A stretch of 64,000 nt of DNA, from positions 30,165-94,164 of the forward strand of contig CAPNDH010000001.1 in the NCBI GenBank assembly GCA_948664205.1, written 5' to 3'. Source of the stretch: an uncultured Clostridia bacterium. GTDB taxonomy: Bacteria > Bacillota > Clostridia > TANB77 > CAG-508. This document shows positions 6,529 through 54,714 of this stretch, one piece after another. A model generated the notes under the pieces. That model made no database searches. It was not told where the DNA came from and saw nothing but the letters and a program-made list of their open reading frames with translations. The position numbers and the translations under genes are program-made. Position 1 is the first letter of the stretch. The number at the start of each line of letters is the position of its first letter.

Positions 6529-8505
6529 TTAAATATTATTTTCTTTTTCTAATCCCCACACTCTTTTTAGAAAATCATATCTTTTTTGAAATTCTTCTTT
6601 ATGCCAATCTTTAATTTCTATTAAGTCTCCAATTTCTTTGTGTATACTTTTTATTTCTTCTAAATGTTTTTGTTTTTTCATATTAGAAGTAATATTCTCC
6701 CCATGTACACGATAATAGTTATATGGTTTATTTACATATGCTATATCTCCTTTTATCATAACATTTGCATATACAACCCAATCACCTGCTTGTCTGTACT
6801 TTGTTGCTTTTTCGAATATATCATCATAATTATCTTTTTTTATAATACATGATGAAACATTTGCTATAGTGCAATTTAAAAATGTGTAATTATCTAATTC
6901 ATTTTTTCCATTGTTTATAAAATCTTTATCCCAATGGCCTGTTTTTCTTAAATCAATTTCAGGTTTAATTGTTTTTAAGAATATTTCACCTTGCTTATTT
7001 ATAAAAGCTGTATCAACATATGCAATTCTAATATTATTATTTTTTCTTATTTTATTTAAAAGTACTTTTAACAATCTTTTATCACAATAATCATCTGCTT
7101 CTGCAATCCAAACATAATCACCTTTAGCTAAATCAAATCCTTTTTTCCATTGTTTAAATGCAATACCTGAATTTTCTGTATTATAAACTTTCTTTATATC
7201 TATGTATTTGCTTAACTTTTCTGTAATATTATCTATTAATTCTCTGCTATTATCTTTAGAGCAATCATCTAATATTATTAATTCATTTATCTTTTCTTTT
7301 TGATTTAATATACTATATATTCTTTGAACTAAATAATCTTCATAATTATAATTTGGAACAACTACTGATACTTTAATGTCTTTATCTTTTAACCTTGCTT
7401 GCTTTCTAGCTACTTTTTCCAAATCATCTATGGTTAAATTTTTTCTTATAACATTTTTTGTTTTTAGTTTTGATTTTATTTTTCTTAGCACAGGTATAAC
7501 TTTACCCATAATATTAACACATACTAGATATAAGTTTATTAGTAAAGGACTCTTTGTTCTTAATAACTTTACAGAGCCTAATACACGTAATTTTTCAAGC
7601 CTCGGAAATGCACCTATACATTCTCTACCTTTTTTGCTATTTTCAATGCCTAGCATTTTATTCTTTTTTATAAACAATTTTAAAAATTTTTGTCTTTTGA
7701 AAAATCCTTTTATTTTAATAATTTTATATATATATAGCATAAATACTTGGTGACATATAATTATATCTTTATATTTTTCAAAGTCTTTCAAATCATTTAT
7801 TCTATCAAGACATACTTTTACTGAGTCAAACATATCAAATCTTTTTATAGAAAAATCCGAATTCTGTATAGATGTATTTCTTTGTACATAATAATATTTG
7901 CATTTATCTGTGTATGCAATTTTCTTTGCATGAAGTACACTTGGTATAACAGATGCTACATCTTCATTTATTTTTCCTTCTAAAAACAAATAATCTTCAA
8001 TTAATGATTTTTTAAATAGTTTATTGCAGGCTGATGCACATAGTCCATTATCTATTGAAGCAAGCTTTATATCTTCTTGATTTGGATTGATTCCTTTTTG
8101 AAGCTCACTCATTTCTTTTCCATCTTCATCAACAATTAAAATATTTGTTATTGCAACTTCTGCATTTTCTTTTTCTATTTCATCAATTAATGCTTCATAA
8201 TAATTTTCATCTATATAATCGTCTGAATCAATAAAACCTATAAAATCTGTTTTGGCTTCCATTATTCCTTTATTTCTTGTTGCTGCAAGTCCTAAATTTT
8301 TTTCATTTTTTATTACTTTAACTTTTCCTTCATTTTCCTTTTCTATTTCCTTAATAATTTCAAATGTTTTGTCTGTAGAGCAATCATCAATTGCTATTAT
8401 TTCTATGTTTTTATATGTTTGATTTAATATTGATTCAATTGATTTTTTTACATATTTTTCAACATTATAGCATGGTACAATTACAGTTATTTTTTTATTT
8501 TCCAT
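6529..8505 (-). CDS. Bifunctional GT2 glycosyltransferase (two GT-A domains)
   Basis: 658 aa with two GT2 signatures (ITVIVPCYNVEKY...IDDCSTD and VSVVVPNYNYEDY...LDDCSKDNS). Confidence 0.65.
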   Translation of the reverse strand: MENKKITVIVPCYNVEKYVKKSIESILNQTYKNIEIIAIDDCSTDKTFEIIKEIEKENEGKVKVIKNEKNLGLAATRNKGIMEAKTDFIGFIDSDDYIDENYYEALIDEIEKENAEVAITNILIVDEDGKEMSELQKGINPNQEDIKLASIDNGLCASACNKLFKKSLIEDYLFLEGKINEDVASVIPSVLHAKKIAYTDKCKYYYVQRNTSIQNSDFSIKRFDMFDSVKVCLDRINDLKDFEKYKDIIICHQVFMLYIYKIIKIKGFFKRQKFLKLFIKKNKMLGIENSKKGRECIGAFPRLEKLRVLGSVKLLRTKSPLLINLYLVCVNIMGKVIPVLRKIKSKLKTKNVIRKNLTIDDLEKVARKQARLKDKDIKVSVVVPNYNYEDYLVQRIYSILNQKEKINELIILDDCSKDNSRELIDNITEKLSKYIDIKKVYNTENSGIAFKQWKKGFDLAKGDYVWIAEADDYCDKRLLKVLLNKIRKNNNIRIAYVDTAFINKQGEIFLKTIKPEIDLRKTGHWDKDFINNGKNELDNYTFLNCTIANVSSCIIKKDNYDDIFEKATKYRQAGDWVVYANVMIKGDIAYVNKPYNYYRVHGENITSNMKKQKHLEEIKSIHKEIGDLIEIKDWHKEEFQKRYDFLKRVWGLEKENNI

Positions 8506-13279: not shown

Positions 13280-14500
13280 CTATTTTCTATTTATTTGTAT
13301 TTGTGTTTTCATATCTACAATTCCTACAATTTGTTTTTTAGACATTATTTCGACAAGTATAGCATCATATTTTCTGTCAAACACTTCTAATTCTCCTTCT
13401 TCATTTATCCTTGTGCATCCAAATGAGAACGCATATTTATCTGGTGTTAAAGGAAATACTTGTTTGAATTCTACTATTACTTCTTCTCCTTTTTTGTAAT
13501 TTCCTGTTTCTTTATTTTCAAGCATTGTGTTTGTTCCTAATAATTCTAAACCTCTAAAATCTTTTACAGATACTGCAAATATTGGCTCTTTTACATCTTC
13601 GTTAAATTTTATTTTTAGTTTAATTGTAACTTCTTCATCATTTTCAAATATTTTTACTATTTCATTTTTATTATTTAGTATTTTATAATCTATTATCTCT
13701 GCTTTTCCATTTCCATAGGTTATAAGTTTATCTTCATTATTTTTTTCTTTTTCTTCTTCTTTGTTTTCCTCTATTCCAACAATTATTTTTTTATAAAGTT
13801 CAACTCCATCTTTAACACTTCCATCAAAAACTTTTTCCCCTTCTTTTAAAATAATTGTTCTTGTACAATTTCTTATAATATCACTAATATTGTGTGTTAC
13901 AAAAAGTATTGTTTTTCCTTTTTTCTTAAACTCTTCAAATTTTTTGAAACATTTTAATTGGAACGCCATATCTCCTACTGATAATACTTCATCCACTATT
14001 AATATGTCTGGTTCTACATTTATTGCGCATGCAAATGCTAAACGAGCGAACATTCCTGATGAATATGTTTTTACTGGTTGATATAAGTGGTCTCCTATAT
14101 CTGCAAAATCAATTATTTCTTGTTTTTTATTTTCTATTTCTTCTTTTGTCATTCCCATAACTTGTCCATGTTGATATATGTTTTCTTCTCCTGTTAATTC
14201 AGAATTAAATGCTGTACCTAATTCTAAAAGTGAGCTAATTCTTCCATTTATTTTTATATTGCCTGAATTTGGTACTACTACTCCTGTTATTATTTTTAAA
14301 AGGGTAGATTTACCAGCTCCATTTTTTCCAAGTATTCCTAGCACTTCTCCTTTACTTACATTTAAGTTCAAATTATTTAATGCTTTAAATTCTGTGTGCT
14401 TATTGATTTTTGGAAAAATAGCTTCTAAAAGTCTTGCTTGTTTGCTATTATACATTTTATAACTTTTGGTTAAGTTTTCTATTTCTATAATATTTTCCAT
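13280..14500 (-). CDS. ABC transporter ATP-binding protein, Wzt/TagH/KpsT type, with extra C-terminal domain
   Basis: Walker A GKNGAGKST, signature and Walker B present. About 150 extra C-terminal residues, as in Wzt carbohydrate-binding domains. Confidence 0.8.
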   Translation of the reverse strand: MENIIEIENLTKSYKMYNSKQARLLEAIFPKINKHTEFKALNNLNLNVSKGEVLGILGKNGAGKSTLLKIITGVVVPNSGNIKINGRISSLLELGTAFNSELTGEENIYQHGQVMGMTKEEIENKKQEIIDFADIGDHLYQPVKTYSSGMFARLAFACAINVEPDILIVDEVLSVGDMAFQLKCFKKFEEFKKKGKTILFVTHNISDIIRNCTRTIILKEGEKVFDGSVKDGVELYKKIIVGIEENKEEEKEKNNEDKLITYGNGKAEIIDYKILNNKNEIVKIFENDEEVTIKLKIKFNEDVKEPIFAVSVKDFRGLELLGTNTMLENKETGNYKKGEEVIVEFKQVFPLTPDKYAFSFGCTRINEEGELEVFDRKYDAILVEIMSKKQIVGIVDMKTQIQINRK

Positions 14501-14732
14501 TTGCTTACCTTTCTTTTATATCTTGTTTATGTTCCTGACGGGGACACATCTTTTCCTTGCTCATTCTTTGAGTTTCTGTCGGCGACATATCTTTCCCTCG
14601 GGTCATTTCTTCTGTGATAAGATATGTCCCGCGCCTATTATCTATCTTGCTCTAGTTCCTGACGGGGACACATCTTTTCCTAGGGTCATCTCTTCCGTGA
14701 CAAGATATGTCCCGCGCGGGGTGTTTCTATTA
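14501..14732. repeat. GC-rich nested direct/inverted repeat block between the ABC permease and ATPase genes
   Basis: GTTCCTGACGGGGACACATCTTTTCCT occurs twice (14531, 14655). Each unit pairs GGGGACACATCTT with AAGATATGTCCCGCG. Copy 1 carries an extra nested 40-bp half-copy. Confidence 0.7.
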
Positions 14733-15527
14733 TTATAATACATCTGCGAAATCTTTTTTATTTCTTTTAAATACGTTGTTTCCCCATATGAATAATATAA
14801 TTGTTATTACCCAGAATATTATTGTATATATTCCGTAATTGCCTGTTATTATATTAGTTTCATTTATAAATACTTGCCTCATTCCTGTTACTAAATATGT
14901 GAATGGCATACATTGTAATAATTTTAGTAATGTTTGATGTTCTGAAAGCATACTTAAATTCCATATTATTGGTGTAAACCAGAAAAATAGTTGCATTGCT
15001 ATTCCTAGTAAATTTCCGAAGTCTGGTACTATTGTTGTTATTGCTGATGTAAACCTTGTAAAGGCTATTACAAAGCAATACATTGCAAATATTATATATA
15101 TTAATGTTAATGTATTTGGTGGATTTTTAAATACTATACAAACTCCAATAGCAACAATAAATAAAAATATTCCTACAAAGCTTGATGCCATTATTGATAT
15201 ATTAGGTATTACATCTACTGGAAATACTACTTTTTTTACTAAATAGCTATATTGCCTAATTGATCCACTTGCACTCATTATCATGTCATTTAGAGTTTGC
15301 CACATTGCCATTGCTGGTATAAACCATACTGCATATGGATAGTTCCCGTTACTTCTGGTATTTAATATACTTTCAAATACAATTACATATGTTATCATAA
15401 ACACAAATGGTTGTAAAAATCCCCATATTGCACCTAAGCTTGTACTTGCAAATCTATTTTTAAAATCACTTCTTCCTAATTGCCATACTATTTTTTTATT
15501 CTTCCATAATGTTTTTAAATATTCCAT
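14733..15527 (-). CDS. ABC-2 type polysaccharide/teichoic acid export permease (Wzm/TagG-like)
   Basis: 264 aa with 6 TM segments and an ABC-2 family profile. Directly upstream of the ATPase gene. Confidence 0.75.
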   Translation of the reverse strand: MEYLKTLWKNKKIVWQLGRSDFKNRFASTSLGAIWGFLQPFVFMITYVIVFESILNTRSNGNYPYAVWFIPAMAMWQTLNDMIMSASGSIRQYSYLVKKVVFPVDVIPNISIMASSFVGIFLFIVAIGVCIVFKNPPNTLTLIYIIFAMYCFVIAFTRFTSAITTIVPDFGNLLGIAMQLFFWFTPIIWNLSMLSEHQTLLKLLQCMPFTYLVTGMRQVFINETNIITGNYGIYTIIFWVITIILFIWGNNVFKRNKKDFADVL

Positions 15528-21219: not shown

Positions 21220-21231
21220 TGTCTGTTCTCC

Positions 21232-21312
21232 TTTCTTTGGAAGTTAGAAGTTGTAGGTTGGAATTATTGGGTAGTTTCTTCGAAGAGCGGACGTGCAATG
21301 CACGCCCCTACA
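21232..21312. repeat. Family-1 palindromic element (heptad array + TTCGAAG + hairpin + CGCCCCTACA) upstream of the deoB RBS
   Basis: GGAAGTT AGAAGTT GTAGGTT GGAATTA, then TTCTTCGAAGAGCGGACGTGCAATGCACGCCCCTACA. Confidence 0.7.
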
Positions 21313-21318
21313 ATTTTT

Positions 21319-23619
21319 CTAACTTTCAATTTTCTTCTTATACATTTTAAATTCTAAGTTGTATTCATATATATGTATTAGTTTAATTTCGTTTGTGAAT
21401 TCATCTGTTAAAACATTTATATTAAAGTCTTTTCTTGCAACTAATTTCATATCAAATTTATTCAAATCAATTAATACTTTTGTACTTATATCCATACCTA
21501 ATGGAAGTGTTTTGTTTAAATTGTCATAGTACATTATATTTGAATAAAATATAACTGGCATGTTTTCTTTTATATTTATTTTGTATATATTTGTTTCCGC
21601 TTCATTTGTACTTTTTAACAATTCCTCTTTAGGATTTATATTCATTATATTTAAAGCTTTCTCGTTTAGTTCTTCACTACTTGCCATATATATGTGCATA
21701 TCATATGGAGATAGTACCTTTCCATATGCTTCATTTAATAAATTTTTATAATTATTTATATTATCTTTGTACTCTTCTAAAGTAGTTTCTAGATTTATAC
21801 TTAATATTTTATATTTATCTTTTTCTATTTCTCTATGTTTGTTATTATTAAGAACTTTTATTTTAGTTTTATCTTGTGCAACATTTCCAAATATATCAAA
21901 ATCCTTTTGGGTAATTTCATCTATATTTTCTATATATTCTTCCTTAAGTTTCTCTAATTTCTTTTGAATTTTGTTTTCTTCTCTTTTTAGTATCTTCTCT
22001 TTACTTAATATATTAAAAGCATTTAAGTCATTTAAGCAAGCAAATACTGCGTCACATTCATTTTTTGAGAAAGATTCTCTTTGTTTCGAATCTATATGCT
22101 TTCCAAAGTCTTCTAAGTCTTCTTTATAATTAAATACTTTTTTTAGTTTTCCTTTATTTTGATTTTCGTTTTCTTCTGCCTCTGTAAGCATATTTACTTC
22201 ATCTTTATTAGTAAATTTCCAGAAGTCAAAAATACTTTTTTTATGACTTTCTATTTCATTTATATATAAAGTTGCATTTTGTATTTTCTTTTCTAAATTT
22301 TGCTTTTTATTTTCTAGTGCTTTTATATCCATTTCTGAATTCTTGTTTTTTGTTTGTTCTGCTTTTAGTATTTCACATACTTTTAGTAAATCTTCTATTG
22401 TATAAAAATCTTTCTTTTCTATTGTTTCTAGTTTAGTTATTTCTATACTATTCTTTTCTTTACCCTCTTGAAGTTCTTCTTTCTTTATTTTTTTACCTTT
22501 TCCAAAAAAGTATTTTACTCTACCAAAAAATGTTTTTTTACATTCTAAAAACTGTGTAATTTGCTTTTCTTTTGATAAATATTCTTCATTATGTTTTTTT
22601 ACTGTTTCTTTTAAAAGCTCTAAATTTTCTGCAAGCATTATATTTTTTTCATATAATTCGTTTGTCTTTTCTTGTTTTACTTCTACTTCTTTTCGTATGA
22701 ACTCTGACAAATTTTCATATGTTATTTTTTGCATATTATAGCAAAAATCTAAGCTTCCTTCTTCATTTATTAAAGTTTTAAATTTATATTCGTATTCATC
22801 ATTTGACTCAAGTATAAAAAGTGCTTTTATTAATTTGAAGACTTTCCCAGTTTCTTCTTTATCTTTTAAAGTTATTTTATATATACTTCTTACTCCATCA
22901 AATACTGTTGTTGTTCCTAATATTTCAAGCGATGCTTCATTATTTGTATTGTATACTTCATATATATTTGGCCACTCTTTTGTAAATAACCATAAATAAT
23001 TTTCTAGGTCTGATATTTCAGATTTTTTTAGTAATTTATTTGAGTATTCCATATGACTTATTGGAACATATATTAATTCTTTTTTTCTTGATCTTTGTGC
23101 TTCAATTTTTCTTTTTATTAAGTAGAATAAACATTCTGCATTGTTTTCATTGCTAGAATATAACATGAAATATTTATCTTCTACATCTGAATAATATATT
23201 TGCCAAATGTAATTATTTTTATATTTTATTTCATATGGTATTTGTTTATTTAATTCGTTTTGTTCTTCTTCTATGTCTTTAATTTTATCTATATTTAGAT
23301 TATTTAGCATTTTTAAAAATGTTGTATATTCTTCTAAATTTTCCTCACTATTTAACTGCATATAATATGAAATAGGTTTTGCCATCTTTAATTTTTCATT
23401 TAAGTTTTCTAACCTATCTACTGGAGTTATATATATTTCTATGTCTTTTATATCTACATATTTATATACTTTGTAATTATTATCTTCGTATGTTTTTAAT
23501 GGTCTATATTTTATTCTTTCATTGTTTTCAAAACATTTTGGAATTTTTTCTAAGTTTAAGCCTATGTACTTTAGTTTTTCTTCTAACTCCTTACTATCTT
23601 CTTTAGTATTTTTTTGCAC
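21319..23619 (-). CDS. Large coiled-coil hypothetical protein
   Basis: 766 aa, K/E-rich with long predicted coiled coils. No recognisable catalytic motif. Confidence 0.35.
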   Translation of the reverse strand: MQKNTKEDSKELEEKLKYIGLNLEKIPKCFENNERIKYRPLKTYEDNNYKVYKYVDIKDIEIYITPVDRLENLNEKLKMAKPISYYMQLNSEENLEEYTTFLKMLNNLNIDKIKDIEEEQNELNKQIPYEIKYKNNYIWQIYYSDVEDKYFMLYSSNENNAECLFYLIKRKIEAQRSRKKELIYVPISHMEYSNKLLKKSEISDLENYLWLFTKEWPNIYEVYNTNNEASLEILGTTTVFDGVRSIYKITLKDKEETGKVFKLIKALFILESNDEYEYKFKTLINEEGSLDFCYNMQKITYENLSEFIRKEVEVKQEKTNELYEKNIMLAENLELLKETVKKHNEEYLSKEKQITQFLECKKTFFGRVKYFFGKGKKIKKEELQEGKEKNSIEITKLETIEKKDFYTIEDLLKVCEILKAEQTKNKNSEMDIKALENKKQNLEKKIQNATLYINEIESHKKSIFDFWKFTNKDEVNMLTEAEENENQNKGKLKKVFNYKEDLEDFGKHIDSKQRESFSKNECDAVFACLNDLNAFNILSKEKILKREENKIQKKLEKLKEEYIENIDEITQKDFDIFGNVAQDKTKIKVLNNNKHREIEKDKYKILSINLETTLEEYKDNINNYKNLLNEAYGKVLSPYDMHIYMASSEELNEKALNIMNINPKEELLKSTNEAETNIYKINIKENMPVIFYSNIMYYDNLNKTLPLGMDISTKVLIDLNKFDMKLVARKDFNINVLTDEFTNEIKLIHIYEYNLEFKMYKKKIES

Positions 23620-24279: not shown

Positions 24280-25128
24280 ATTGCCAGTTTTCTGAAATTA
24301 TTGCAATTTCAAGTTTTTTAAAGTTTCCATAATATAAATTATAACACACTTATTTCTTTTTGTAAATACGTACTATATATTATTACTTTTTCTACTTGTT
24401 TTTTTAGTGCTCCTTCTAGTGCTTTTTTGTACAAATTTAGTTGTTCTTTGTATTTTTCTATTAGTTCGTTTTCATTTTGTACATAGTCTGTTTTGTAGTC
24501 TACTAATACTATATTTCCTTGTTTATCTATATAATATAAATCTATAATTCCTTGTACTAGTACGTTTTCTTCTATTTGATTATTGTAAATTTCACTTGCT
24601 GGAATATTTATATAAAATGGCTCTTCTTTATGCACTTCTTTTGCTTCTTTAAGCTCTTTAAATAAATTTGATTTTGTTAATTGTAATAATGTTTTTGTGT
24701 TTATGCTTTCCACTTCTTTTTCGGTTATTATATTTTTGTTTCTTAATTCTTTTATTAGTTCTATAATATCTTTTAATTCATATTCTTTTTTCTCGTTTAA
24801 GTTTTTAATGCATAAATGCATTAGTGTTCCTTTTTGTGCTCCTGTTATTTTTTCTTCTTTTTCGAAGTTTGGTGTTTTTAGATTTTTTTCGTTTTTTGTA
24901 ATTTCTTTGGAGTGCTGGTCGCCAATGGCTGTGACCCCTACAGGGCTTTCTTTTCTATTTTTTATTTCGCTTACAGAGGTTTTGGTTGGTATGTTTTCTG
25001 AATTTTTGTATTTATATTGCCAATTTAGAATTTCGTTAATTTTTAGTTTTTCGTTCTCTTTGATTTCTTCTTCAAAGTGCAGATCTTCGGAGTCTGCGAT
25101 CCCTACATCAAATTCTTTGCTATTTTCT

Positions 25129-25181
25129 GGGCGTAATTCGGTAAATTCTTTGTGGTATTCCTTACCGATTAAGCCCCTACA
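25129..25181. repeat. Family-2 hairpin element inside the addA C-terminal ORF (in-frame)
   Basis: GGGCGTAATTCGGTAAATTCTTTGTGGTATTCCTTACCGATTAAGCCCCTACA, translated as GLIGKEYHKEFTELRP. Confidence 0.75.
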
Positions 25182-25220
25182 TCCTGTTTCTAGCTCTTGG
25201 CTTCCACTATCTAACATATG

Positions 25221-25285
25221 ACCTCCGACATCCGACTTCTGACTTCTGTTTTGGTAGTTTGTTCGAAGGGCGGGCGATTGATAAT
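25221..25285. repeat. Family-1 element inside addA at the ORF break
   Basis: CCGACAT CCGACTT CTGACTT heptads plus TTCGAAGGGCGGGCGATTGATAATCGCCCCTACA. Translated as ...HYVGAIINRPPFEQTTKTEVRSRMSEVIC*. Confidence 0.75.
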
Positions 25286-26516
25286 CGCCCCTACATAATG
25301 TTCTTGTACCTCTAATATTTGGGCTATTTTTTCTTTGTCATTTAAGTATACTAATTCTATCCAGTCTAAATATGATATGTATTTTTCTAGTAGGTTTTTA
25401 TCTAGTTTTTGTTTGTTGTAAATTTCTAAAAGTGCTTCTTTTTCTTTTAGTGATTTTTGTAAGTCTTTTTCTACACCTGTTATAAATAATTTTTCTTTTG
25501 CTCTTGTAAGTGCAACATATAATACTCTCATTTCTTCTGATATTGTTTCTTTTCTTATTTTCAAACGTAATGCTTCTTTTGCTAATGTATTATATTCTAT
25601 TCTTCGTTCGTAGTTTATGTATTTCATTCCAAATCCTAAGTCTTGGTGCATTAATACATTGTCATTTAGGTCTTGTAGATTGAATTTTTTACTACTTCCA
25701 CATAAAAATACTACTGGAAATTCTAAACCTTTACTTTTGTGAATACTCATAATTCTTACTACATTATCGTTTTCTCCAATTATTTTTGCAGACCCCATAT
25801 CTTTACTGCTTAGCTTTAATTTGTCTATAAAATTTATAAAGTTATACAAACCTTTAAAACTTGCACTTTCATATTGCTTTGCCTTTTCAAATAGCATTTT
25901 TAGGTTTGCTTGTCTTAGTTTTCCGTTGTTTAACAAACCTACATAATTGTAATAATTACTATCCATATATATTTGCCAGATAAGTTCATCTAGTGTTTTG
26001 TATATTTCTATATTTTTCCAATTTTCTAGCATAGTTATGAATCGATTTATTTTCTCTTTTAATTCTTCGCCTACTGCTACTCTTGCTTTTAACATTGCGT
26101 TATAAAAACTTTCACTTCTGTCTGCTAAACGTATTTGTACTAGGTCATTGTCTGTAAAATTTGCTATGCTTGACCTTAATACTGTAATTAGTGGAATATC
26201 TTGAAGTGGATTATTTATTATTTTTAGTACGCTCATTATTGTTTGTATTTCTGTTGATTCTAAGTATTCGCTTGAAGTATCACTAAATACTGATATATTT
26301 TTTTCTATTAATTCTTTTTCATATATTGGTGCTGAATTTAAAGTTGACCTTAATAATATTACTATGTCTTTATATTGTATTGGTCTGTAGCCTGTTTTTC
26401 TGTCGTATATTTGGTATTTGCTATTTATTAGTTCTTGTATTTTGTTTGCGACAAATTTTGCTTCTATTAGGGTGTTTTCTATTGGTTCTTCTACATTTTC
26501 GTCTTCTTGGGTAATT

Positions 26517-26604
26517 TCTTCGAAGGGCAGGCGATTATTTCTTAGCTCTTCGAGCGGATAGCGAGTTAGAGATAAGTTATGCGCTAGCTTAATCGCCCCT
26601 ACAT
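26517..26604. repeat. Family-1 long element inside the addA N-terminal ORF (in-frame, about 30 aa)
   Basis: TTCTTCGAAGGGCAGGCGATT...AATCGCCCCTACA. Its internal segment is the reverse complement of the copy at 40797-40883. Encodes NVGAIKLAHNLSLTRYPLEELRNNRLPFEEIT. Confidence 0.75.
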
Positions 26605-28325
26605 TCGTATTATATTCTTGATTTTGGCTTGCCAAATCTATAATATGTAGTTCTGCTACCGGGTTATTTTCTGTTTGTGGATAGTCCGCTCCTAGGTTTA
26701 GGTATTCATCTTCGTTGTAATCTATATCTCCTAATTCTTTACTCATTATTTGTTCAAATATATTATTTGTAATATCTAGTACATTTTCTCTACTTCTAAA
26801 GTTTTTAAATAATTGTATTTTTTTGCCTTGTTTTTTCTCTATTGTATTAATTAAATTTTGTAGAGTAGCCACAGCAGTATATTTTTCATATTTTTCTAAA
26901 AACAACTCTGGTCTTGCTTGTCTAAACCTATATATACTTTGCTTTACATCTCCAACCATAAATATATTGCTTCCGTTTGAAATACTGTTTAGTATATATT
27001 CTTGTACTAGGTTACTATCTTGATATTCGTCTATTGCTATTTCTGTAAATTTTTCTTTTATCTTGTTTGCAACTTCTGTTGGAACATATTCTCCTTCTTC
27101 ACTTTTTTGTACTAATATTTTTAGTGCAAAATGTTCTATGTCGTGGAAGTCTATTATATTCTTTTCTTTCTTTTTTTCTAAAAATCTTGTTTCAAATTCA
27201 ATAACAATATTTTTTAAATTTGATAATGTTTTATACATTTCGTACATATCTTCATTTGCTCTATATGAATCATATAAAAATATTTTTTTATTTGCAGAAT
27301 CTATATCTTTTTTTACTTTATCTCTTATTTCTTTTGCTTCATCCTTTAATGATATACTTATTTTTCTATCTATTGGCCATTTTTCAAATTTTAAATTTGA
27401 TACTTTTTCATATGTTTTATTCCATATATTTTCATTGTTAGAACTAATTTCATTTTCTATTTCTTGTATAGCTTCAATATCGTTTATTATTGTTAATGAA
27501 TATTTTTCTAGTTCTGGCTCTTTTAATAGTTTTCTTTTTATTCCTTCTAATTTTAATATATTTTCTCTTAATTTTTCTTTATATTCTTTTAACAGAATTT
27601 CTCCCCATATTGTTTTTGCAAAGTCTTTATTTAATTTTTCTTTTAAATTAAACATTTCTACTTTTTCTTCTAGCCATTCTTTAGGAAATGGAGCACTTTG
27701 TATATAATTATATATTCTTAATATTAGTTCTTTTAATGGCTCGTCTCCCCTATATGTTGTATATGTATTTATTAAATTCAAAAATTCTTTATCTTTGTTT
27801 ATATATTTATCCTCAAATAAGTCTTCTAGTATGTCTTGTTTTAGTAATTCTACTTCTGTTTGGTCTCCTATTCTGAAGTTTGCTGATATGTCTAATTCAT
27901 AAAAATAATTTCTAATTACTTCTAGGCAAAATGAGTGTATTGTACATATACTTGCTCTATTTAGTAGTGTTATTTGTCTTTGCATACGTACATCATTTGG
28001 GTTTTCTTCTATTTTTTTATAAATAGCATCTAGTATTCTTTCTCTCATTTCACTTGCGGCTGCATTTGTAAATGTAACAACTAATATATTATCTATATCT
28101 ACATTTTCATTAACTATTTTATTTATTATACGCTCAACAAGCACAGCTGTTTTACCACTTCCTGCAGCTGCTGCAACTAATATATTTGAACCTTTTTCAT
28201 ATATAGCTTTTTGTTGTTCTTTTGTCCATTTAACTTCTGACATATTTCTCCTCCATTTTTTATTACTATATCATAAATCTTTGTTAAAGTAAAACCACAC
28301 AAATTAAATTTTGTGTGGCTTTATT

Positions 28326-28547: not shown

Positions 28548-28598
28548 ATGCGTCAAAAGGGACATATGACGCATTTGTACCTGTCCCCAATGAGTCAT
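28548..28598 (-). repeat. Family-3 structured element abutting the stop codon of 28598..29470
   Basis: TGCGTCAAAAGGGACATATGACGCATTTGTACCTGTCCCCAATGAGTCAT. GGGAC/GTCCC and ATGACGCATT/AATG(A/C)GTCAT pairings interleave. Confidence 0.6.
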
Positions 28599-31926: not shown

Positions 31927-33315
31927 TTAAAATTCTAGTTTTTCCTCTAACCACGCTGGTATTTCGTCTATTTTTAAACGTATTTGCTCCATTGTGTCTC
32001 TATCACGTATTGTTACTGTGTCATCTTCTAATGTGTCAAAGTCTACTGTTACACAGTAAGGTGTTCCTATTTCATCTTCTCTTCTATAACGTTTTCCTAT
32101 TGAGCCTGCTTCATCGTAGTCACACATAAATTTCTTTGATAATTTTGTATATACTTCATCTGCTTTTTCACTTAGTTTTTTAGATAGTGGTAGTACTGCT
32201 ACTTTGTATGGTGCTAGTGCTGGATGTAAGTGCAGAACTGTTCTTGTGTCTCCTTCTGCTATCTCTTGTTCTTCGTAGCTGTTACATAACATTGCTAGGA
32301 ATATTCTATCTACACCAACTGCTGGTTCTACGCAGTATGGTACATATTTTTCATTTGTTTCTGCGTCTAAGTATGTTAAATCTTGTTTTGATGCTTCCAT
32401 ATGTCTTGATAAGTCATAGTCTGTTCTATCTGCTATTCCCCATAGTTCTCCCCAACCAAATGGGAATAAAAATTCTATATCTGTTGTTCCTTTACTATAG
32501 AATGATAGTTCTTCTTTTGAGTGTTCTCTCATTCTTAAGTTTTCTTCTTTTACTCCTAAACTTAATAACCAATCTTTACAGAATTTTTTCCAGTATTCAT
32601 ACCATTCTAAATCTGTTCCTGGTTTGCAGAAAAATTCTAATTCCATTTGTTCGAATTCTCTTGTTCTGAATATAAAGTTTCCTGGTGTTATTTCATTTCT
32701 AAAAGAACGACCCATTTGACCTATTCCCATTGGCATTTTCCTTCTTGTTGTACGTAGTACATTTTTAAAGTCTACAAACATTCCTTGTGCTGTTTCTGGT
32801 CTTAGGTATACTTCTGATTTTGCATCTTCTGTTACTCCCATAAATGTTTTGAACATTAAGTTGAATTTTCTTATTTCTGTAAATTCTTGTTTACCACAGT
32901 TTGGACAAGTAATATTATTTTCATTTATATATTCTACTAATTGTTCATTTGTCCAACCATCTAATCCTGAAATGTCTTTTCCTTTACTAAATCCCCATTC
33001 TTCTATTAATTTGTCTGCTCTATGTCTTGTTTTACATGATTTACAATCTATTAGTGGATCTGAAAAGCCTCCTACGTGACCTGTTGTTACCCATACTTGT
33101 GGGTTCATCATAATTGCAGCATCTATTCCTACATTGTATTTATTTTCTATTATAAATTTTCTCCACCAAGCATCTTTAATATTTTTCTTAAGTTCTGCTC
33201 CTAATGGTCCATAATCCCAAGAATTTGCTAAACCTCCATAAATTTCCGACCCTGGGTATACAAACCCTCTGTTTTTGCATAATGCAACTAGTTTTTCCAT
33301 TGTTAATTCTGACAT
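31927..33315 (-). CDS. glyQS: Glycine--tRNA ligase, dimeric class II; ORF-track N-terminal extension trimmed to MSELTMEKL after RBS AAAGGAGG
   Basis: [39 protein letters not shown]... full-length match. The ORF-track extension reads through a palindromic repeat. Confidence 0.9.
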
Positions 33316-33336
33316 TTTAATTCCTCCTTTTATAAT

Positions 33337-33440
33337 TGGAGGTTGGAAGTTGGAGATTGGAGATTGGAACTTCTGGGGAATTCCTTCGAAGAATTTACCC
33401 CATATTCCAACTTCCAACTTCTAACTTCTAACTTCCATAT
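33337..33440. repeat. Long palindromic Family-1 element (heptad arrays flank a GGGGAATTCCTTCGAAGAATTTACCCC core) between the T-box terminator and the glyQS RBS
   Basis: GGAAGTT GGAGATT GGAGATT GGAACTT ... CCAACTT CCAACTT CTAACTT CTAACTT CC. Both arms are visible in the sequence. Confidence 0.75.
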
Positions 33441-34919: not shown

Positions 34920-34971
34920 GGATGGTATAATAACCATCCCTATATTATTTAATATTTATTATTTTAAAGTT

Positions 34972-35027
34972 CCCAAAAGGGACAGATTACCCATTAGGAA
35001 ACGTCCACAATGGACACCCCATGCACA
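34972..35027 (-). repeat. Family-3 element (degenerate copy) abutting the murC stop codon
   Basis: CCCAAAAGGGACAGATTACCCATTAGGAAACGTCCACAATGGACACCCCATGCACAC. Confidence 0.45.
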
Positions 35028-36407: not shown

Positions 36408-36540
36408 GTTATTCGCCCTCTCCTTTTTTAGTGTTCTAGCTTATTATACAATCTAAATGTATTTTTTTCAATACATTTTGTAAAAGTTATTTTTATGTCG
36501 AATTTTGTAGTATTGCAATTTTTAAAATATTATTTTGTAT

Positions 36541-36659
36541 TGTAGAAGTCGCCGCCTTATCATGCAACTTGTGCTTCAACGAAATTACTTAAATAAAATA
36601 TGTATTTTTATAGCATTTCTTCGAAGATCGGGTCGCTTGATAAGGCGGCGACCCCTACA
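36541..36659. mobile_element. MITE-like Family-1 element with about 22-bp terminal inverted repeats
   Basis: TGTAGAAGTCGCCGCCTTATCA ... TGATAAGGCGGCGACCCCTACA. Internal CAACGAAATT...GCATTTCTTCGAAG is shared with the copy at 47528-47632. Confidence 0.7.
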
Positions 36660-36757
36660 ATTATTATATGTTATTTATTATATAAAGTTACAATTCAAGG
36701 TTAAATCATCCTATAATTATTCACTATTAACTATTCATTATTCACTTAGGCTTCCTT

Positions 36758-38670: not shown

Positions 38671-38708
38671 TTTATTTCCTCTTTTATTTTATAATTTCTA
38701 ATATAAAA

Positions 38709-38760
38709 GGGCGTAATTCGGTATTTCTCATAGGTATTCCTTACCGATTAAGCCCCTACA
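38709..38760. repeat. Family-2 hairpin element
   Basis: GGGCGTAATTCGGTATTTCTCATAGGTATTCCTTACCGATTAAGCCCCTACA. Confidence 0.75.
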
Positions 38761-38818
38761 TTTAATAATTATTCACTATTCATTCTTCATTATTCACTTA
38801 GCACGTAAGTGCGCTTTA

Positions 38819-40672
38819 TTATCTTCTTGCTTCTCTTTCTCTTGTTTTTGTGTCTAGTGTTTTCTTTCTTAAACGAATATTTTTTGGTGTTACTTCTACT
38901 AGCTCATCTTCTGCTATGAATTCTATTGCTTTTTCTAGTGACATTTGAAGTGGTGGTACTAGACGTAGTGCGTCATCTGAACCTGAGGCTCTTGTGTTTG
39001 TTAGGTGCTTTTCTTTACATACGTTTATTGCTATATCTTCATTTCTTGAGTTTATTCCTACTATCATTCCCTCATATACATCTACACCTGCTCCTATTAG
39101 TAGTTCTCCTCTTTCTTGTGCATTATATAAACCATATGTTACACTTGTTCCTTGTTCCCATGCTACTAGTACTCCTCTTGTTCTTGCTTGTATGTCTCCT
39201 TTAAATGGTTCGTAGCAATCAAATATTGAGTTCATTGTTCCTTCACCTTTTGTATCTGTTAAAAACTCTGTTCTATAACCTATTAGTCCACGTGCTGGTA
39301 TTTTGAATTCTACTTTTGTGTGTCCCGCTTCTGCTGGTTCCATATTTGTCATTTCACCTTTACGTCTTCCTAATTTTTCTATTACTGTTCCTATTGATTC
39401 GTCTGGTACATTTACTACTAGTCTTTCTACTGGTTCACATTTTACACCATCTATTTCTTTGAATATAACTTTTGGACGTGATACTAATAGTTCAAATCCT
39501 TCTCTTCTCATTGTTTCTATTAATACTGATAAGTGTAGTTCCCCACGTCCACATACTTCGAAACTATCTGCTGAATCTGTTTCTTTTACACGTAAAGACA
39601 CATTTCTTTCTAGTTCTTTGAATAATCTATCTCTAATGTGACGTGATGTTATGAATTCTCCTTCTTTTCCTGCAAATGGTCCATTGTTTACACTAAATGT
39701 CATTGATACTGTTGGTTCATCTATATCTACAAAAGGTATTTTTTCTGGGTTATTTAGGTCACATATTGTGTCTCCTATGTTAATATCTGCTACACCTGAT
39801 AGTGAAACTATATCTCCTGCTGTTGCTTCTTCTACTTCTGTTCTTTTTAGACCTTGATATGTGAATAGTTTTGCTACTTTTCCTTGTGCATTTTTTTCTT
39901 GCTTACATATTGCTATTGGCATTCCTGCTTTTATTGTGCCACGTTCTATTCTTCCTACTGCTATTCTTCCTAGGTAGTCATCATAGTCTATGTTTGAAAC
40001 TAGCATTTGCGCTGGTCCATCTATTTCACATTCTGGCGCATCTATATATTTTACTATTGTATCAAATATACAGTTTACATTATCACTTTCTTCTGATAGG
40101 CTCATTTTCGCTATTCCACTTTTTGCTGATGCATATATTACTGGGAAGTCTAATTGGTCATCATTTGCATCTAATTCTATGAATAGTTCTAGTACTTTGT
40201 CTACTACTTTTTCAGGGTCTGATCCTGGTCTATCTATTTTATTTATTACTACTATTGGTTTTAAGTTTAATGCCAATGATTTTTTAAGTACCTCTCTTGT
40301 TTGAGGCATTGGTCCTTCAAATGCATCTACTAATAGTAATACTCCATCTACTGTTTTTAGTACACGTTCTACTTCTCCACCGAAATCTGCGTGACCTGGT
40401 GTATCTACTATATTTATTTTTATATCATTATACATTACTGATGTATTTTTTGAAAGAATTGTTATTCCTCTTTCTTTTTCTAGGTCATTTGAGTCCATTA
40501 CTCTTTCTGCTACTTGTTCATTTTCTCTAAATACATGACTTTGACGTAGTAGGCAGTCTACTAACGTTGTTTTTCCGTGGTCAACGTGTGCAATTATTGC
40601 TATATTTCTTATATTTTCATTTTTCATTTTTATTTTTCCCCTTTCAAAATTCGAAGAATTTTGTACTTTCAC
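38819..40672 (-). CDS. typA: Translational GTPase TypA/BipA
   Basis: 617 aa, NIAIIAHVDHGKTTLVD...DTPGHADFGGEVERVL, with EF-G-like domains. Confidence 0.9.
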   Translation of the reverse strand: MKVQNSSNFERGKIKMKNENIRNIAIIAHVDHGKTTLVDCLLRQSHVFRENEQVAERVMDSNDLEKERGITILSKNTSVMYNDIKINIVDTPGHADFGGEVERVLKTVDGVLLLVDAFEGPMPQTREVLKKSLALNLKPIVVINKIDRPGSDPEKVVDKVLELFIELDANDDQLDFPVIYASAKSGIAKMSLSEESDNVNCIFDTIVKYIDAPECEIDGPAQMLVSNIDYDDYLGRIAVGRIERGTIKAGMPIAICKQEKNAQGKVAKLFTYQGLKRTEVEEATAGDIVSLSGVADINIGDTICDLNNPEKIPFVDIDEPTVSMTFSVNNGPFAGKEGEFITSRHIRDRLFKELERNVSLRVKETDSADSFEVCGRGELHLSVLIETMRREGFELLVSRPKVIFKEIDGVKCEPVERLVVNVPDESIGTVIEKLGRRKGEMTNMEPAEAGHTKVEFKIPARGLIGYRTEFLTDTKGEGTMNSIFDCYEPFKGDIQARTRGVLVAWEQGTSVTYGLYNAQERGELLIGAGVDVYEGMIVGINSRNEDIAINVCKEKHLTNTRASGSDDALRLVPPLQMSLEKAIEFIAEDELVEVTPKNIRLRKKTLDTKTREREARR

Positions 40673-40796
40673 TATTCATTCTTCACTTTTCACTATATTA
40701 ATTTTTCCATTATTATCGGGCAGACACATTTCGCCTGCCCTCCCAAGCCGTAGGTTTGTACTATTCACTATTAACTATTCACTATTCACTGAACAA

Positions 40797-40945
40797 TTCC
40801 TTCGAAGTGCGGGCGATTGGCTTTGCATAACTTATCTCTAACTCGCTAATCGCTCGAAGAGCTAAGAAAATAATCGCCCCTACGTTTCTTTTATGTTTTC
40901 TATATGTTGTAGTTACACAGGCCGACGAAGGCGACGACCCCTACG
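40797..40945. repeat. Family-1 long element plus adjacent mini-element, preceded by a TATTCAC heptad array
   Basis: TTCGAAGTGCGGGCGATT...AATCGCCCCTACG and TGTAGTTACACAGGCCGACGAAGGCGACGACCCCTACG. Heptads TATTCAC x4 at 40761-40790. Confidence 0.7.
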
Positions 40946-45707: not shown

Positions 45708-45811
45708 ATTTTTATTCCTTATTTGTTTTTTATTACTTTATATCATATTTCTTTTAATTTTCATAGCTTTTTTATTAATTTATAAAAAATAATATAAAGC
45801 TTGTACAAAAA

Positions 45812-45863
45812 TGAGTCAAAAGGGACAGATGACGCATTTGAAAACGTCCCCAATGCGTCATCC
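45812..45863 (-). repeat. Family-3 element abutting the stop codon of 45867..46304
   Basis: ATGAGTCAAAAGGGACAGATGACGCATTTGAAAACGTCCCCAATGCGTCATCC. 11-bp stem GATGACGCATT/AATGCGTCATC plus GGGGAC/GTCCC and a U-tract on the minus strand. Confidence 0.6.
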
Positions 45864-46533: not shown

Positions 46534-46692
46534 ATGTATAATGCAGGGCTTTACATGGGAACATCTAAACATTTTGATTCGAAAAGAGTGTCCGAGATCC
46601 GCAATCGTTACTTTTATGCACGTCAGCTCGAGCCTGCTCGTGAGAACATGCGGAAATTAAGGGAGGAAAAAGCGCTTAGGGCGAAGCAGTAA
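46534..46692 (+). CDS. Small basic protein (52 aa) with anomalous GC/codon usage; start at the ATG after RBS AAGAGGAGG
   Basis: Promoter TTGATT-17-TATAAT at 46453-46481. Strong RBS. Terminator hairpin 46713-46742. The coding region is about 50% GC in an AT-rich genome. Confidence 0.35.
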   Translation: MYNAGLYMGTSKHFDSKRVSEIRNRYFYARQLEPARENMRKLREEKALRAKQ

Positions 46693-47457: not shown

Positions 47458-47527
47458 ATTCTATTGTTAGTTTTATATTTCTCATATTTGACCTATTCCT
47501 TTTTAGTATAGTTATCATAAATACTAT

Positions 47528-47632
47528 TGTAGGGGCGACTATTAGTCGTCCGTGCTCCAACGAAATTGCCCTATAAATATTATATTTTAGCAATTTCTTC
47601 GAAGAGCGGACGAGCTATGCTCGCCCCTACAA
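47528..47632. mobile_element. MITE-like Family-1 element with TIRs TGTAGGGGCGA...TCGCCCCTACA
   Basis: TGTAGGGGCGACTATTAGTCGTCCG...TTCTTCGAAGAGCGGACGAGCTATGCTCGCCCCTACA. Spurious ORF 47363..47593 reads through it. Confidence 0.7.
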
Positions 47633-48732: not shown

Positions 48733-48870
48733 TTTTTGTCCTCCTTTGTAAAATGTTTGCATTATTATAATATCATATTTTATTTTTGGTTTCAATGCTT
48801 TATTTTATTATTTTTATTAAAGTAAGAAATTTTTGGTTACAGTTCATAGTTTAAAAATATTTTATTTTTA

Positions 48871-49021
48871 CTGTAGGGGCTAAATCGGTAAGGAATACCT
48901 CTTTGGGAATACCCAATTTCGCCCTTACATATTTTAAAATATTGCTATAAATTTTACATATATGTTTAGGGCGTAATTCGGTAAATTCTTATGGGTATTC
49001 CTTACCGATTAAGCCCCTACA
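48871..49021. repeat. Two Family-2 elements in opposite orientation (composite palindrome of about 150 bp)
   Basis: 48871-48929 TGTAGGGGCTAAATCGGTAAGGAATACC...GCCCTTACA, and 48969-49021 GGGCGTAATTCGGTAAATTCTTATGGGTATTCCTTACCGATTAAGCCCCTACA. Confidence 0.75.
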
Positions 49022-49051
49022 TATATATTAAATTAGCTGCAATATATATAT

Positions 49052-54603: not shown

Positions 54604-54714
54604 AGTAAGTAATATATTTTATTTTTTCCATTTCGCCCTCCAAGCTCACGGGTATTCCCCCGCCTCAAAGGGCTGTCGGGACTTCATTACAAAAATAAAA
54701 TATATTACTCACTT
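54604..54714. mobile_element. MITE-like element with 23-bp AT-rich TIRs enclosing a 65-bp GC-rich core, inside the 5' leader of 54052..54528
   Basis: AGTAAGTAATATATTTTATTTTT ... AAAAATAAAATATATTACTCACT (one mismatch). Core CCATTTCGCCCTCCAAGCTCACGGGTATTCCCCCGCCTCAAAGGGCTGTCGGGACTTC. Confidence 0.5.

What the first reader, a model, noticed from the sequence alone, without database searches (positions are those of the whole stretch)
24339..28243. Palindromic GC-rich miniature elements are translated in-frame inside the addA helicase-nuclease gene (RPE-like behaviour), in an addA that lacks addB
Element copies lie inside the AddA-like ORFs.
- Read-through insertions: the copy at 26517-26604 is read through as about 30 aa, NVGAIKLAHNLSLTRYPLEELRNNRLPFEEIT. 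The copy at 25129-25181 is read as GLIGKEYHKEFTELRP.
- Other copies: a third copy with its heptad array (25221-25285) spans the point where the reading frame breaks by one nucleotide. A partial copy sits at 24903-24945.
- Context: in-frame insertion of repeat elements into proteins is known from Rickettsia palindromic elements, but I do not know it for Clostridia. addA is normally co-operonic with addB, yet no addB-like gene flanks it here. An orphan, peppered addA suggests this recombination pathway is decaying or remodelled.
Basis: partly seen in the sequence, partly recalled or inferred. Interest (0 to 1): 0.8.

Follow-up and report, generated by a model that had tools for sequence, protein, structure and literature searches.

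The report
REP hairpin repeats translated inside addA
Small GC-rich hairpin repeats of the REP type, which normally lie between genes, have landed in the flexible linkers of the DNA-repair gene addA in an uncultured gut Clostridia bacterium and are read as protein; this was already known for recB and uvr genes in other phyla, so it is a new host lineage rather than a new phenomenon.

Summary
Five GC-rich hairpin units lie inside a Gram-positive-type addA (24339-28243, minus strand) and are read as protein.

- **What the elements are:** GTAG-tagged REP/REPIN elements. They have an invariant 5' GTAG and an 8-bp stem with compensatory changes. At least 110 stretches in about 28 Clostridia MAGs carry them, nearly all between genes. 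In two related MAGs, inverted copies flank a RAYT-like Y1 transposase gene.
- **Where they sit:** in a loop and a linker that vary in length among orthologs. The site-1 insert replaces two residues of B. subtilis AddA.
- **The frame break:** it is real and fixed. At least five assemblies share it. It maps to a 7-nt repeat array beside one REP. ORF2 starts at an ATG 4 nt after a GGAGG and overlaps the ORF1 stop.
- **Selection:** addA is not decaying (dN/dS 0.09-0.18; 0.08-0.16 among strains that share the split).
- **addB:** absent from the window and not next to addA in any of the eight related species checked. Absence from the whole genome could not be tested.

In-frame REPs in recB and uvr genes were described in 2013 in other phyla. 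This is a new member of a known kind, of moderate interest.

The parts
25211..28243 (-). addA ORF1: UvrD-type helicase part, 1010 aa, ends in TAG at 25213-25211
   Evidence: TIGR02785 addA_Gpos 984.7 bits against a cut-off of 707.65; Pfam UvrD-helicase and UvrD_C. The identical ORF occurs in independent assemblies.
24339..25217 (-). addA ORF2: linker plus PD-(D/E)XK nuclease domain, 292 aa, offset by 2 nt from ORF1
   Evidence: PF12705 PDDEXK_1 at 8e-11; TIGR02785 profile positions 965-1232. GIIDL and VDYK motifs are present. dN/dS 0.15-0.18 against two other species.
26517..26604 (-). Site 1: type-A GTAG REP whose loop carries a 53-nt insert; read as NVGAIKLAHNLSLTRYPLEELRNNRLPFEEIT
   Evidence: Query residues 540-578 stand where B. 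subtilis AddA (3U44_A) has only residues 535-536. Decayed copies lie at the same place in L003 and L005. An intact simple copy lies in the same loop of the L023 addA.
25262..25294 (-). Site 3: intact 33-nt type-A REP core, read as VGAIINRPPFE at the end of ORF1
   Evidence: Matches the family pattern. Absent from the intact ortholog in L003.
25219..25248 (-). Heptad array (sense GAAGTCA GAAGTCG GATGTCG GAGGTCA), open in all three sense frames; the frame change falls here
   Evidence: TRF period 7, 4.3 copies. Adding one unit or removing two gives a 1303- or 1296-aa ORF. The P0002 species has a 7-unit array at its own frame break.
25211..25226 (-). Junction: GGAGG (25226-25222), 4-nt spacer, ATG of ORF2 (25217-25215), TAG of ORF1 (25213-25211)
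   Evidence: Read directly from the sequence. Function as a coupling site is inferred, not shown.
25129..25181 (-). Type-B GTAG REP (long hairpin), read as GLIGKEYHKEFTELRP in ORF2
   Evidence: Family D3, with copies at 38700-38761 and 48961-49022 and an inverted copy at 48872-48924. The sense strand folds at -16.9 kcal/mol. Absent from L003 and L005.
25085..25108 (-).
   Evidence: Aligns with an intact REP (GTAGGGGCGATTATTAATCGCCCGATCTTCAAAGAA) in L006 and L007 and with an AT-decayed version in L003.
24903..24946 (-). GTAG hairpin variant (GTAGGGGTCACAGCCATTGGCGACC), read as PVGVTAIGDQH
   Evidence: At this point L003 has no element, and L005-L007 carry a different REP plus heptad array.

Best explanation
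**What they are.** The GC-rich segments are copies of a GTAG-tagged REP/REPIN family. These are short hairpin repeats of the kind thought to be mobilised through single-stranded DNA by RAYT tyrosine transposases. The family populates the intergenic space of a group of uncultured, very AT-rich gut Clostridia.

**How they got into addA.** A few copies landed in two stretches of addA that tolerate almost any sequence:
- an acidic surface loop after the first helicase half;
- the long linker between the helicase and nuclease domains.

They survive there only in the sense orientation and in the one sense frame that is reliably free of stop codons. In that frame they are translated as VGAxxxRPxFEEIT-like peptides. 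Older copies are being eroded toward AT-rich coding sequence.

**The frame break.** A 7-nt repeat array attached to one REP is one unit short of keeping the frame. In this species addA is therefore fixed as two overlapping ORFs. The helicase ORF is clearly still under selection.

The nuclease ORF is most likely still made, by re-initiation at the ATG that overlaps the ORF1 stop and follows a GGAGG.

**Shown and inferred.** The identity, distribution and reading of the elements, the reality of the split and the selection on addA are shown. Transposition by a RAYT in this genome and separate translation of ORF2 are inferred.
For: **Family identity.**
- 43 distinct 33-nt variants share an invariant GTAG. 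Their 8-bp stem is 99.7% paired, and three pairs covary.
- G:U replaces G:C at one pair in 20 of 43 variants, which fits the GTAG strand only.
- Inverted doublets occur in the window (I1, I6) and in many loci.
- At least 110 stretches in about 28 Clostridia MAGs carry the pattern.
- About 108 of 113 intact copies are intergenic.
- Y1_Tnp proteins (28.5 and 29.3 bits, cut-off 23) are flanked by inverted REPs in L044 and L066.

**Insertion.**
- Orthologs differ exactly at the element positions.
- The site-1 insert replaces two residues of 3U44_A.

**Orientation.** All nine intragenic copies seen are sense and in frame 0, although the antisense strand offers two open frames.

**Split.**
- The junction is identical in at least five assemblies, including strains about 4.5% diverged over the addA region compared.
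- One added heptad restores the ORF.

**Selection.**
- dN/dS is 0.09-0.11 for the helicase part and 0.15-0.18 for the nuclease part between species.
- pN/pS is 0.08-0.16 in ORF1 among strains that share the split.

**Precedent.** PMC3733652 reports in-frame GTAG and CGTC REPs concentrated in recBCD, uvrABCD and polymerase genes.
Against: - No RAYT gene lies in the 64-kb window, so mobilisation in this genome is not shown.
- The spacer between GGAGG and ATG is 4 nt, shorter than at the two other gene starts read in this window (6 and 8 nt).
- The P0003 species has no comparable start for its nuclease ORF. Separate translation is therefore not a consistent design across species.
- Within the species ORF2 shows only 2 synonymous and 4 non-synonymous differences, too few to prove selection after the split.
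- recG carries a frameshift in two relatives, which fits some erosion of recombination genes in the group.
Confidence: 0.75

Rival explanations
1. addA is a decaying pseudogene in a lineage that is losing the AddAB pathway. The element insertions and the frameshift are symptoms of relaxed selection.
For: - A frame break is present, and addB is neither adjacent nor in the window.
- Five or six related species also have addA broken in the same linker.
- recG is frameshifted inside its Walker A codons in L003 and L005.
Against: - There is one lesion only in 3.9 kb, and it lies at the domain boundary.
- Catalytic motifs are intact.
- dN/dS is 0.09-0.18 between species.
- pN/pS is 0.08-0.16 in ORF1 among strains that all carry the split.
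- Every nuclease ORF that is fully on its contig in a split species is otherwise intact and still matches PDDEXK_1.
Confidence: 0.12
2. The frame break is a sequencing or assembly artefact at a short tandem repeat, and the real gene is a single 1303-aa ORF.
For: The break sits in a repeat array, where assemblers and polishers can miscount. One extra unit restores the frame.
Against: - The same junction occurs in the window, L001, L002, L126, L127 and further cluster members from different samples and assemblers.
- These include strains with 160 substitutions across 3.3 kb of addA.
- The array is imperfect and only 30 nt long, well within read length.
Confidence: 0.04
3. Full-length AddA is still made, either by heptad-number switching in part of the population (phase variation) or by ribosomal frameshifting in the overlap.
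For: - The array is stop-free in all three frames, and a change of +7 nt restores the ORF.
- The P0002 species breaks frame inside its own 7-unit array.
- Both frames are open across 25217-25298.
Against: - No length variant was seen among at least five assemblies.
- The units are imperfect, which lowers slippage.
- No canonical X XXY YYZ slippery heptamer lies in the overlap (read).
Confidence: 0.1
4. The GC-rich segments are ordinary ancestral coding sequence, not inserted repeats.
For: They lie in regions that vary in all orthologs, so exact insertion boundaries cannot be drawn.
Against: - The same 33-45 nt sequence occurs more than 100 times between genes in about 28 genomes.
- Orthologs at 72-75% identity lack it.
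- B. subtilis AddA has two residues where site 1 has 39.
Confidence: 0.01

Closest known systems
GTAG-tagged REP/REPIN elements with RAYT transposases (Nunvar 2010; Bertels and Rainey 2011, PMC3116915; Di Nocera 2013, PMC3733652)
   Same: - A 5' GTAG next to a short GC-rich hairpin, with G:U pairs on one strand.
- High copy number, mostly intergenic and co-oriented with flanking genes.
- Inverted doublets.
- A Y1 transposase gene flanked by inverted copies.
- Occasional in-frame copies in DNA-repair genes, including the recB class.
   Different: - The host is an uncultured Clostridia group of about 26% GC; the 2013 survey lists no Firmicutes.
- A conserved 3' tail CTTCGAAGAAATTAC.
- Frequent flanking 7-nt repeat arrays.
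- A subfamily with a 53-nt loop.
- Five units in a single gene.
Rickettsia palindromic elements (RPE; Ogata 2000, from my own knowledge; called CGTC-type in PMC3733652)
   Same: Palindromic repeats inserted in frame into protein-coding genes and translated, at places the protein tolerates, in an AT-rich genome.
   Different: - RPEs carry a CGTC tag and have no associated transposase.
- RPE-1 is longer.
- There is no sequence relationship.
- Here nearly all copies are intergenic, and the intragenic ones are the exception.
AddAB helicase-nuclease of Bacillus subtilis (PDB 3U44, 3U4Q, 4CEH)
   Same: Same domain order and motifs. The match to 3U44_A has E 1e-234 over three blocks. ORF1 passes the addA_Gpos equivalog cut-off.
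   Different: - It is encoded as two overlapping ORFs.
- It has 39 extra residues in the loop at B. subtilis residues 535-536 and a longer helicase-nuclease linker.
- No addB lies beside it.
Simple-sequence contingency loci (phase variation by repeat-number change; from my own knowledge)
   Same: A tandem repeat whose unit is not a multiple of three lies inside a coding region, and one unit more or less switches the frame.
   Different: The repeats are imperfect and number only about four. No length polymorphism was seen among strains.

Membership tests
REP/REPIN-RAYT system | Conserved GTAG tetranucleotide at the 5' end of the palindrome | tested here: met
   G1 T2 A3 G4 are invariant in 43 distinct variants. 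The five addA copies read GTAGGGG or GTAGGGA on the sense strand.
REP/REPIN-RAYT system | Short hairpin kept by compensatory changes | tested here: met
   8 pairs, 99.7% of cells paired, 3 pairs with changes on both sides (46 cells), 0 of 500 shuffles reach the score; slid controls give 37-50% paired.
REP/REPIN-RAYT system | Many dispersed copies, mainly extragenic | tested here: met
About 108 of 113 copies have fewer than 60 open codons on one side.
REP/REPIN-RAYT system | Inverted doublets (REPINs) | tested here: met
   Window 36539-36661, 47526-47631 and 48858-49035. Many loci show a second, inverted copy 40-60 nt downstream.
REP/REPIN-RAYT system | A RAYT (Y1 HUH transposase) gene flanked by the REPs | tested here: met
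   Met in related MAGs only. L044 6228-6677 and L066 1829-2353 match PF01797 at 28.5 and 29.3 bits (cut-off 23) and have inverted REPs on both sides. None lies in the 64-kb window; the rest of this genome was not available.
REP/REPIN-RAYT system | Cleavage and mobilisation of the REP by the RAYT | not testable with these tools
   Needs biochemistry, or insertions that differ between strains.
Rickettsia palindromic elements | RPE sequence class (CGTC tag, no dedicated transposase) | tested here: not met
   The tag here is GTAG and a RAYT is associated. The RPE features are taken from PMC3733652.
Rickettsia palindromic elements | In-frame insertion into a gene that stays functional | tested here: met
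   The copies are read through without stops. addA dN/dS is 0.09-0.18.
AddAB (Gram-positive type) | AddA with a UvrD-like helicase and a C-terminal PD-(D/E)XK nuclease | tested here: met
   TIGR02785 at 984.7 bits (ORF1) and 148 bits (ORF2); Pfam domains.
AddAB (Gram-positive type) | AddA encoded as one polypeptide | tested here: not met
   Two ORFs overlap by 7 nt, and the arrangement is fixed in the species.
AddAB (Gram-positive type) | addB encoded next to addA | tested here: not met
   The neighbours are an aldose epimerase, a 64-aa ORF, a 167-aa ORF and a 766-aa protein that matches no family. The AddB probe has no hit in the window. The same holds in the eight related species checked.
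AddAB (Gram-positive type) | addB present somewhere in the genome | not testable with these tools
   Only 64 kb of this genome is held. The AddB probe found nothing in about 0.9 Mb of related loci, which is too small a sample to conclude.
Phase-variable simple-sequence locus | Repeat-number polymorphism between strains | tested here: not met
   All cluster members end in the same ...EVRSRMSEVIC peptide or a near variant. L126 has substitutions in the array but the same length.

The most novel reading that the evidence does not exclude
In this Clostridia lineage AddA has become a two-polypeptide enzyme that works without AddB. On this reading the REP-linked heptad array did more than break the gene: it supplied the ribosome-binding site and start codon for a separately translated nuclease subunit. 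Recurrent splits in the same linker in sister species would then show that helicase and nuclease can be uncoupled.
Probability: 0.2. Interest if true: 0.65.

Novelty: new member of a known kind. Interest (0 to 1): 0.45.

Why it matters
- It extends GTAG-type REP elements, and their habit of settling in frame inside RecB-class repair genes, to uncultured low-GC gut Clostridia. That supports the earlier suggestion that repair helicases are preferred or unusually tolerant hosts across phyla.
- It gives annotators a practical warning. In these MAGs, GC-rich islands and 7-nt arrays inside genes are real, and so are the gene splits they cause.
- If the split AddA works, and if addB is truly absent, the lineage would be a natural test of which parts of AddAB are needed for end processing.

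Tried and rejected
- **Rfam.** The whole window at gathering score and 24300-26700 at E up to 1 gave no match. The hairpins are not a described RNA family.
- **Divergent AddB next to addA.** I tested the 766-aa gene downstream of addA and the 1006-aa gene downstream of the P0101 ortholog. Neither matches Pfam or NCBIfam, they do not resemble each other, and they do not match the AddB probe. Rejected.
- **AddB probe.** I wrote a B. subtilis AddB sequence from memory. It scored 1784 bits on TIGR02773 against a cut-off of 903.7. tblastn against the window and 127 loci gave only weak hits to addA helicase regions.
- **Wider addB search.** I did not search the large protein databases for addB. The output carries no taxonomy, and Bacillus hits would fill the list.
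- **Programmed -1 frameshift.** I looked for a slippery site in the overlap and found only CCAAAAC, which is not canonical.
- **Selection on ORF2 after the split.** The within-species comparison has only 6 differences, so it has no power.
- **REP peptides in homologs.** A scan of the 120 best AddA homologs found intact signatures only in P0001-P0003. The behaviour is confined to the close relatives plus the L023 species.
Full report
**1. What is in the sequence**

The window is about 26% GC, and almost all genes are on the minus strand. The region 24339-28243 holds two overlapping minus-strand ORFs.
- ORF1 (25211..28243, 1010 aa) scores 984.7 bits on the NCBIfam equivalog addA_Gpos (cut-off 707.65). 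It has the UvrD helicase domains.
- ORF2 (24339..25217, 292 aa) matches the last 270 positions of the same model and Pfam PDDEXK_1.

Inside the gene there are five GC-rich units, not four:
- 26517-26604;
- 25262-25294, followed by a period-7 array at 25219-25248 (TRF);
- 25129-25181;
- 24903-24946.

On the sense strand each begins with GTAGGG.

**2. They are repeats, and they are REPs**

CCCCTACA occurs 11 times in the window against 0.43 expected. The repeat finder groups the addA copies with intergenic copies at 21261-21312, 36539-36661, 38700-38761, 40799-40884, 47526-47631 and 48858-49035. Several of these are inverted doublets.

- All but two stretches come from about 28 uncultured Clostridia MAGs from goat, rabbit, human, termite and other guts.
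- The two exceptions are GC-rich genomes, about what chance predicts by my rough estimate.

The 33-nt cores give 43 distinct variants.
- GTAG is invariant.
- The 8-bp stem is paired in 99.7% of cells.
- Three distal pairs change on both sides.
- One pair is G:C in 23 variants and G:U in 20. That works only on the GTAG strand.

In tandem gene contexts the GTAG strand is the sense strand of both neighbours 48 times and the antisense strand 12 times.

A recalled E. coli RAYT sequence, used as a probe, found three ORFs in the loci. Two of them (L044, L066) are 150-aa proteins that pass the Pfam Y1_Tnp cut-off. Type-A REPs in inverted orientation flank both. This is the published REPtron arrangement. 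Rfam has nothing for these sequences.

I therefore file the elements as GTAG-type REP/REPIN elements. One caveat: no RAYT lies in this 64-kb window.

**3. They are insertions at tolerant places**

*Site 1.* Against B. subtilis AddA (3U44_A), residues 4-539 and 579-937 align. The 39 residues between them stand where the solved protein has two. In an alignment of 40 homologs this spot is an acidic loop of very variable length.

At the DNA level the closest species carry different things at the same places.
- L003 and L005 have AT-decayed versions of the site-1 REP.
- L006 and L007 have an intact REP where the window has the degenerate 25085-25108 copy, and L003 has an eroded one.
- L005-L007 have a REP plus five heptads where the window has the 24903-24946 variant.
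- The block 25129-25300 is absent from the intact L003 gene.

A more distant species (L023) has an intact simple REP in the site-1 loop.

*How rare intragenic copies are.* Among 113 intact copies, only the addA copies and one copy in tilS (L053, in an inter-domain linker that also carries a second REP-like segment) are clearly intragenic. In-frame copies are therefore rare, and addA is over-represented among them.

*Orientation.* All nine intragenic copies seen are in the sense orientation and in frame 0 (VGA...FEEIT). That is the only sense frame reliably free of stops. The antisense strand has two open frames, so stop codons do not force this orientation.

**4. The frame break**

*Real and fixed.* ORF2 is offset by 2 nt from ORF1, and both frames are open across 25217-25298. 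The same 1010-aa and 292-aa pair is called in two metagenome assemblies whose addA regions differ from the window at one base up to the last 70 nt. The 90% cluster of ORF1 has further members from other samples that end in the same peptide. One strain differs at 160 positions across 3.3 kb of addA. The break is not an assembly error.

*Where it lies.* It falls in the heptad array. Duplicating one unit, deleting two units, or adding one A to CCAAAAC each gives one ORF of about 1300 aa. On the sense strand the junction reads GGAGG-TCAT-ATG-T-TAG. A Shine-Dalgarno-like GGAGG therefore lies 4 nt before the ORF2 start, and that start overlaps the ORF1 stop.

*Related species.* Five other related protein clusters are split in the same linker, each at a different point:
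- P0002 inside its own 7-unit heptad array;
- P0003 inside a different REP;
- P0006 in a decayed REP;
- P0027 and P0030 at AAA-TAA-A, with no element there (the P0027 DNA was not examined; it is inferred from its matching C-terminal peptide).

**5. Is addA decaying?**

Between the window and two other species, dN/dS is 0.09-0.11 for the helicase part and 0.15-0.18 for the nuclease domain. Those values mostly reflect history before the split. I therefore also compared strains that all share the split. ORF1 gives pN/pS 0.08-0.16 on 66-142 differences. ORF2 has only 6 differences and no power.

There is no second lesion in 3.9 kb, and the catalytic motifs are present. Decay is therefore not supported for the helicase, and it is unlikely but not excluded for the nuclease half.

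**6. addB**

No ORF in the window resembles AddB. A recalled B. subtilis AddB sequence, validated at 1784 bits on TIGR02773, gives no tblastn hit in the window or in about 0.9 Mb of related loci. The two large unknown genes downstream of addA, here and in a 62% relative, are not AddB-like.

addA has different neighbours and no addB beside it in any of the eight related species checked, from about 86% down to 60% identity. The unlinked placement is therefore old. Whether addB exists elsewhere in these genomes could not be tested.

**7. Comparison with what is known**

Di Nocera et al. 2013 (PMC3733652) make several relevant points.
- They sorted prokaryotic REPs into GTAG and CGTC super-families.
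- They noted G:T pairing and the position of REPs downstream of genes.
- They reported REPs inside genes, many of them in recBCD, uvrABCD and polymerase genes. In many species these are the only REP-tagged genes.
- They found REPs at about the same site of recB in two Xanthomonas species.
- They list GTAG repeats in Proteobacteria, Cyanobacteria, Chloroflexi and the PVC group, not in Firmicutes.

Bertels et al. 2017 (PMC5581495) note that Group 1 RAYTs occur in Clostridia.

The behaviour here is therefore a known one in a new host lineage. Three features are local: five units in one gene, attached heptad arrays, and a fixed split.

**8. Verdict**

This is a new member of a known kind, of moderate interest (0.45). 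The open points that could raise it are whether addB is truly absent and whether the two-ORF addA is functional.

Noticed in passing
window 26538-26582 and 40825-40869; L063 about 7650-7730 (minus strand): A REP subfamily carries a 53-nt insert in its loop. The REP arms have the same orientation in the addA copy and the intergenic copy at 40799-40884, but the loop is inverted (96% complementary). This looks like a flip between the hairpin arms. A third copy, in another MAG, has the 40.8-kb orientation.
   Followed up: partly
window 21230-21260, 33335-33368, 33405-33437, 36718-36746, 38770-38798, 40667-40694, 40760-40790: Period-7 tandem arrays of 4-5 units (GGAAGTT-like or TATTCAC-like) lie beside REPs. 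In some loci (L031, L041) they flank a REP on both sides as inverted arrays. The pair at 33335-33437 lies at the 5' end of ORF 31927..33417. Their origin and role are unknown.
   Followed up: partly
L003 5700-5760; L005 7215-7275: recG in two related species has one extra C inside the Walker A codons (GGAGATGTAGGTTCC-C-GGAAAAACA). This splits the gene into 303-aa and 341-386-aa ORFs, with the same lesion in both species. It is either an old inactivation or a recoding site.
   Followed up: no
L053 96-1187 (minus strand): tilS (PP-loop tRNA lysidine synthase) carries one intact in-frame REP (PVGATSSRPHFEEIPQ) and a second REP-like segment (NVGADLVPAQ) in its inter-domain linker. It is the only other clearly intragenic case found.
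   Followed up: partly
L044 6228-6677; L066 1829-2353; L073 3-644: Y1 (IS200-like) transposase genes. The first two are about 150 aa and are flanked by inverted type-A REPs (REPtrons). The third is longer, lies at a contig end, and has a different GC-rich repeat downstream.
   Followed up: partly
window 28548-28598, 34968-35018, 45811-45861: Another intergenic repeat family (…CAAAAGGGACA…GTCCCCAATG…). One copy lies between the aldose-epimerase gene and the small ORF upstream of addA. It is not related to the GTAG REPs.
   Followed up: no
window 14571-14717: Two tandem 64-nt GC-rich units (86% identical) lie between ORFs 13280..14500 and 14733..15527. They have no Rfam match.
   Followed up: no
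window 54634-54685 and 46618-46687: Isolated GC-rich islands with no Rfam match. The first resembles a sequence (CGAACCCTCCAAGCTC) seen beside a REP in L068.
   Followed up: no
L121 4000-4060: In the P0030 species (and probably P0027, judged from its matching C-terminal peptide) addA ORF1 ends at CGG-AAA-TAA-A, and the protein continues in the +1 frame with no REP nearby. This could be a plain frameshift or a +1 recoding site at a stop codon.
   Followed up: no
window 21319-23619 (minus strand): A 766-aa coiled-coil-rich protein with no Pfam or NCBIfam match lies downstream of addA. It is conserved there in three species (758-766 aa) and missing from that position in L003.
   Followed up: partly
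L097 3361-3393 (minus strand): One of the two matches in GC-rich genomes (an Actinomycetes MAG) is a perfect GTAGGGGCG-AGGCATGCCT-CGCCCGCCCTTCGAA hairpin. This is either chance or a related REP in a distant phylum.
   Followed up: no
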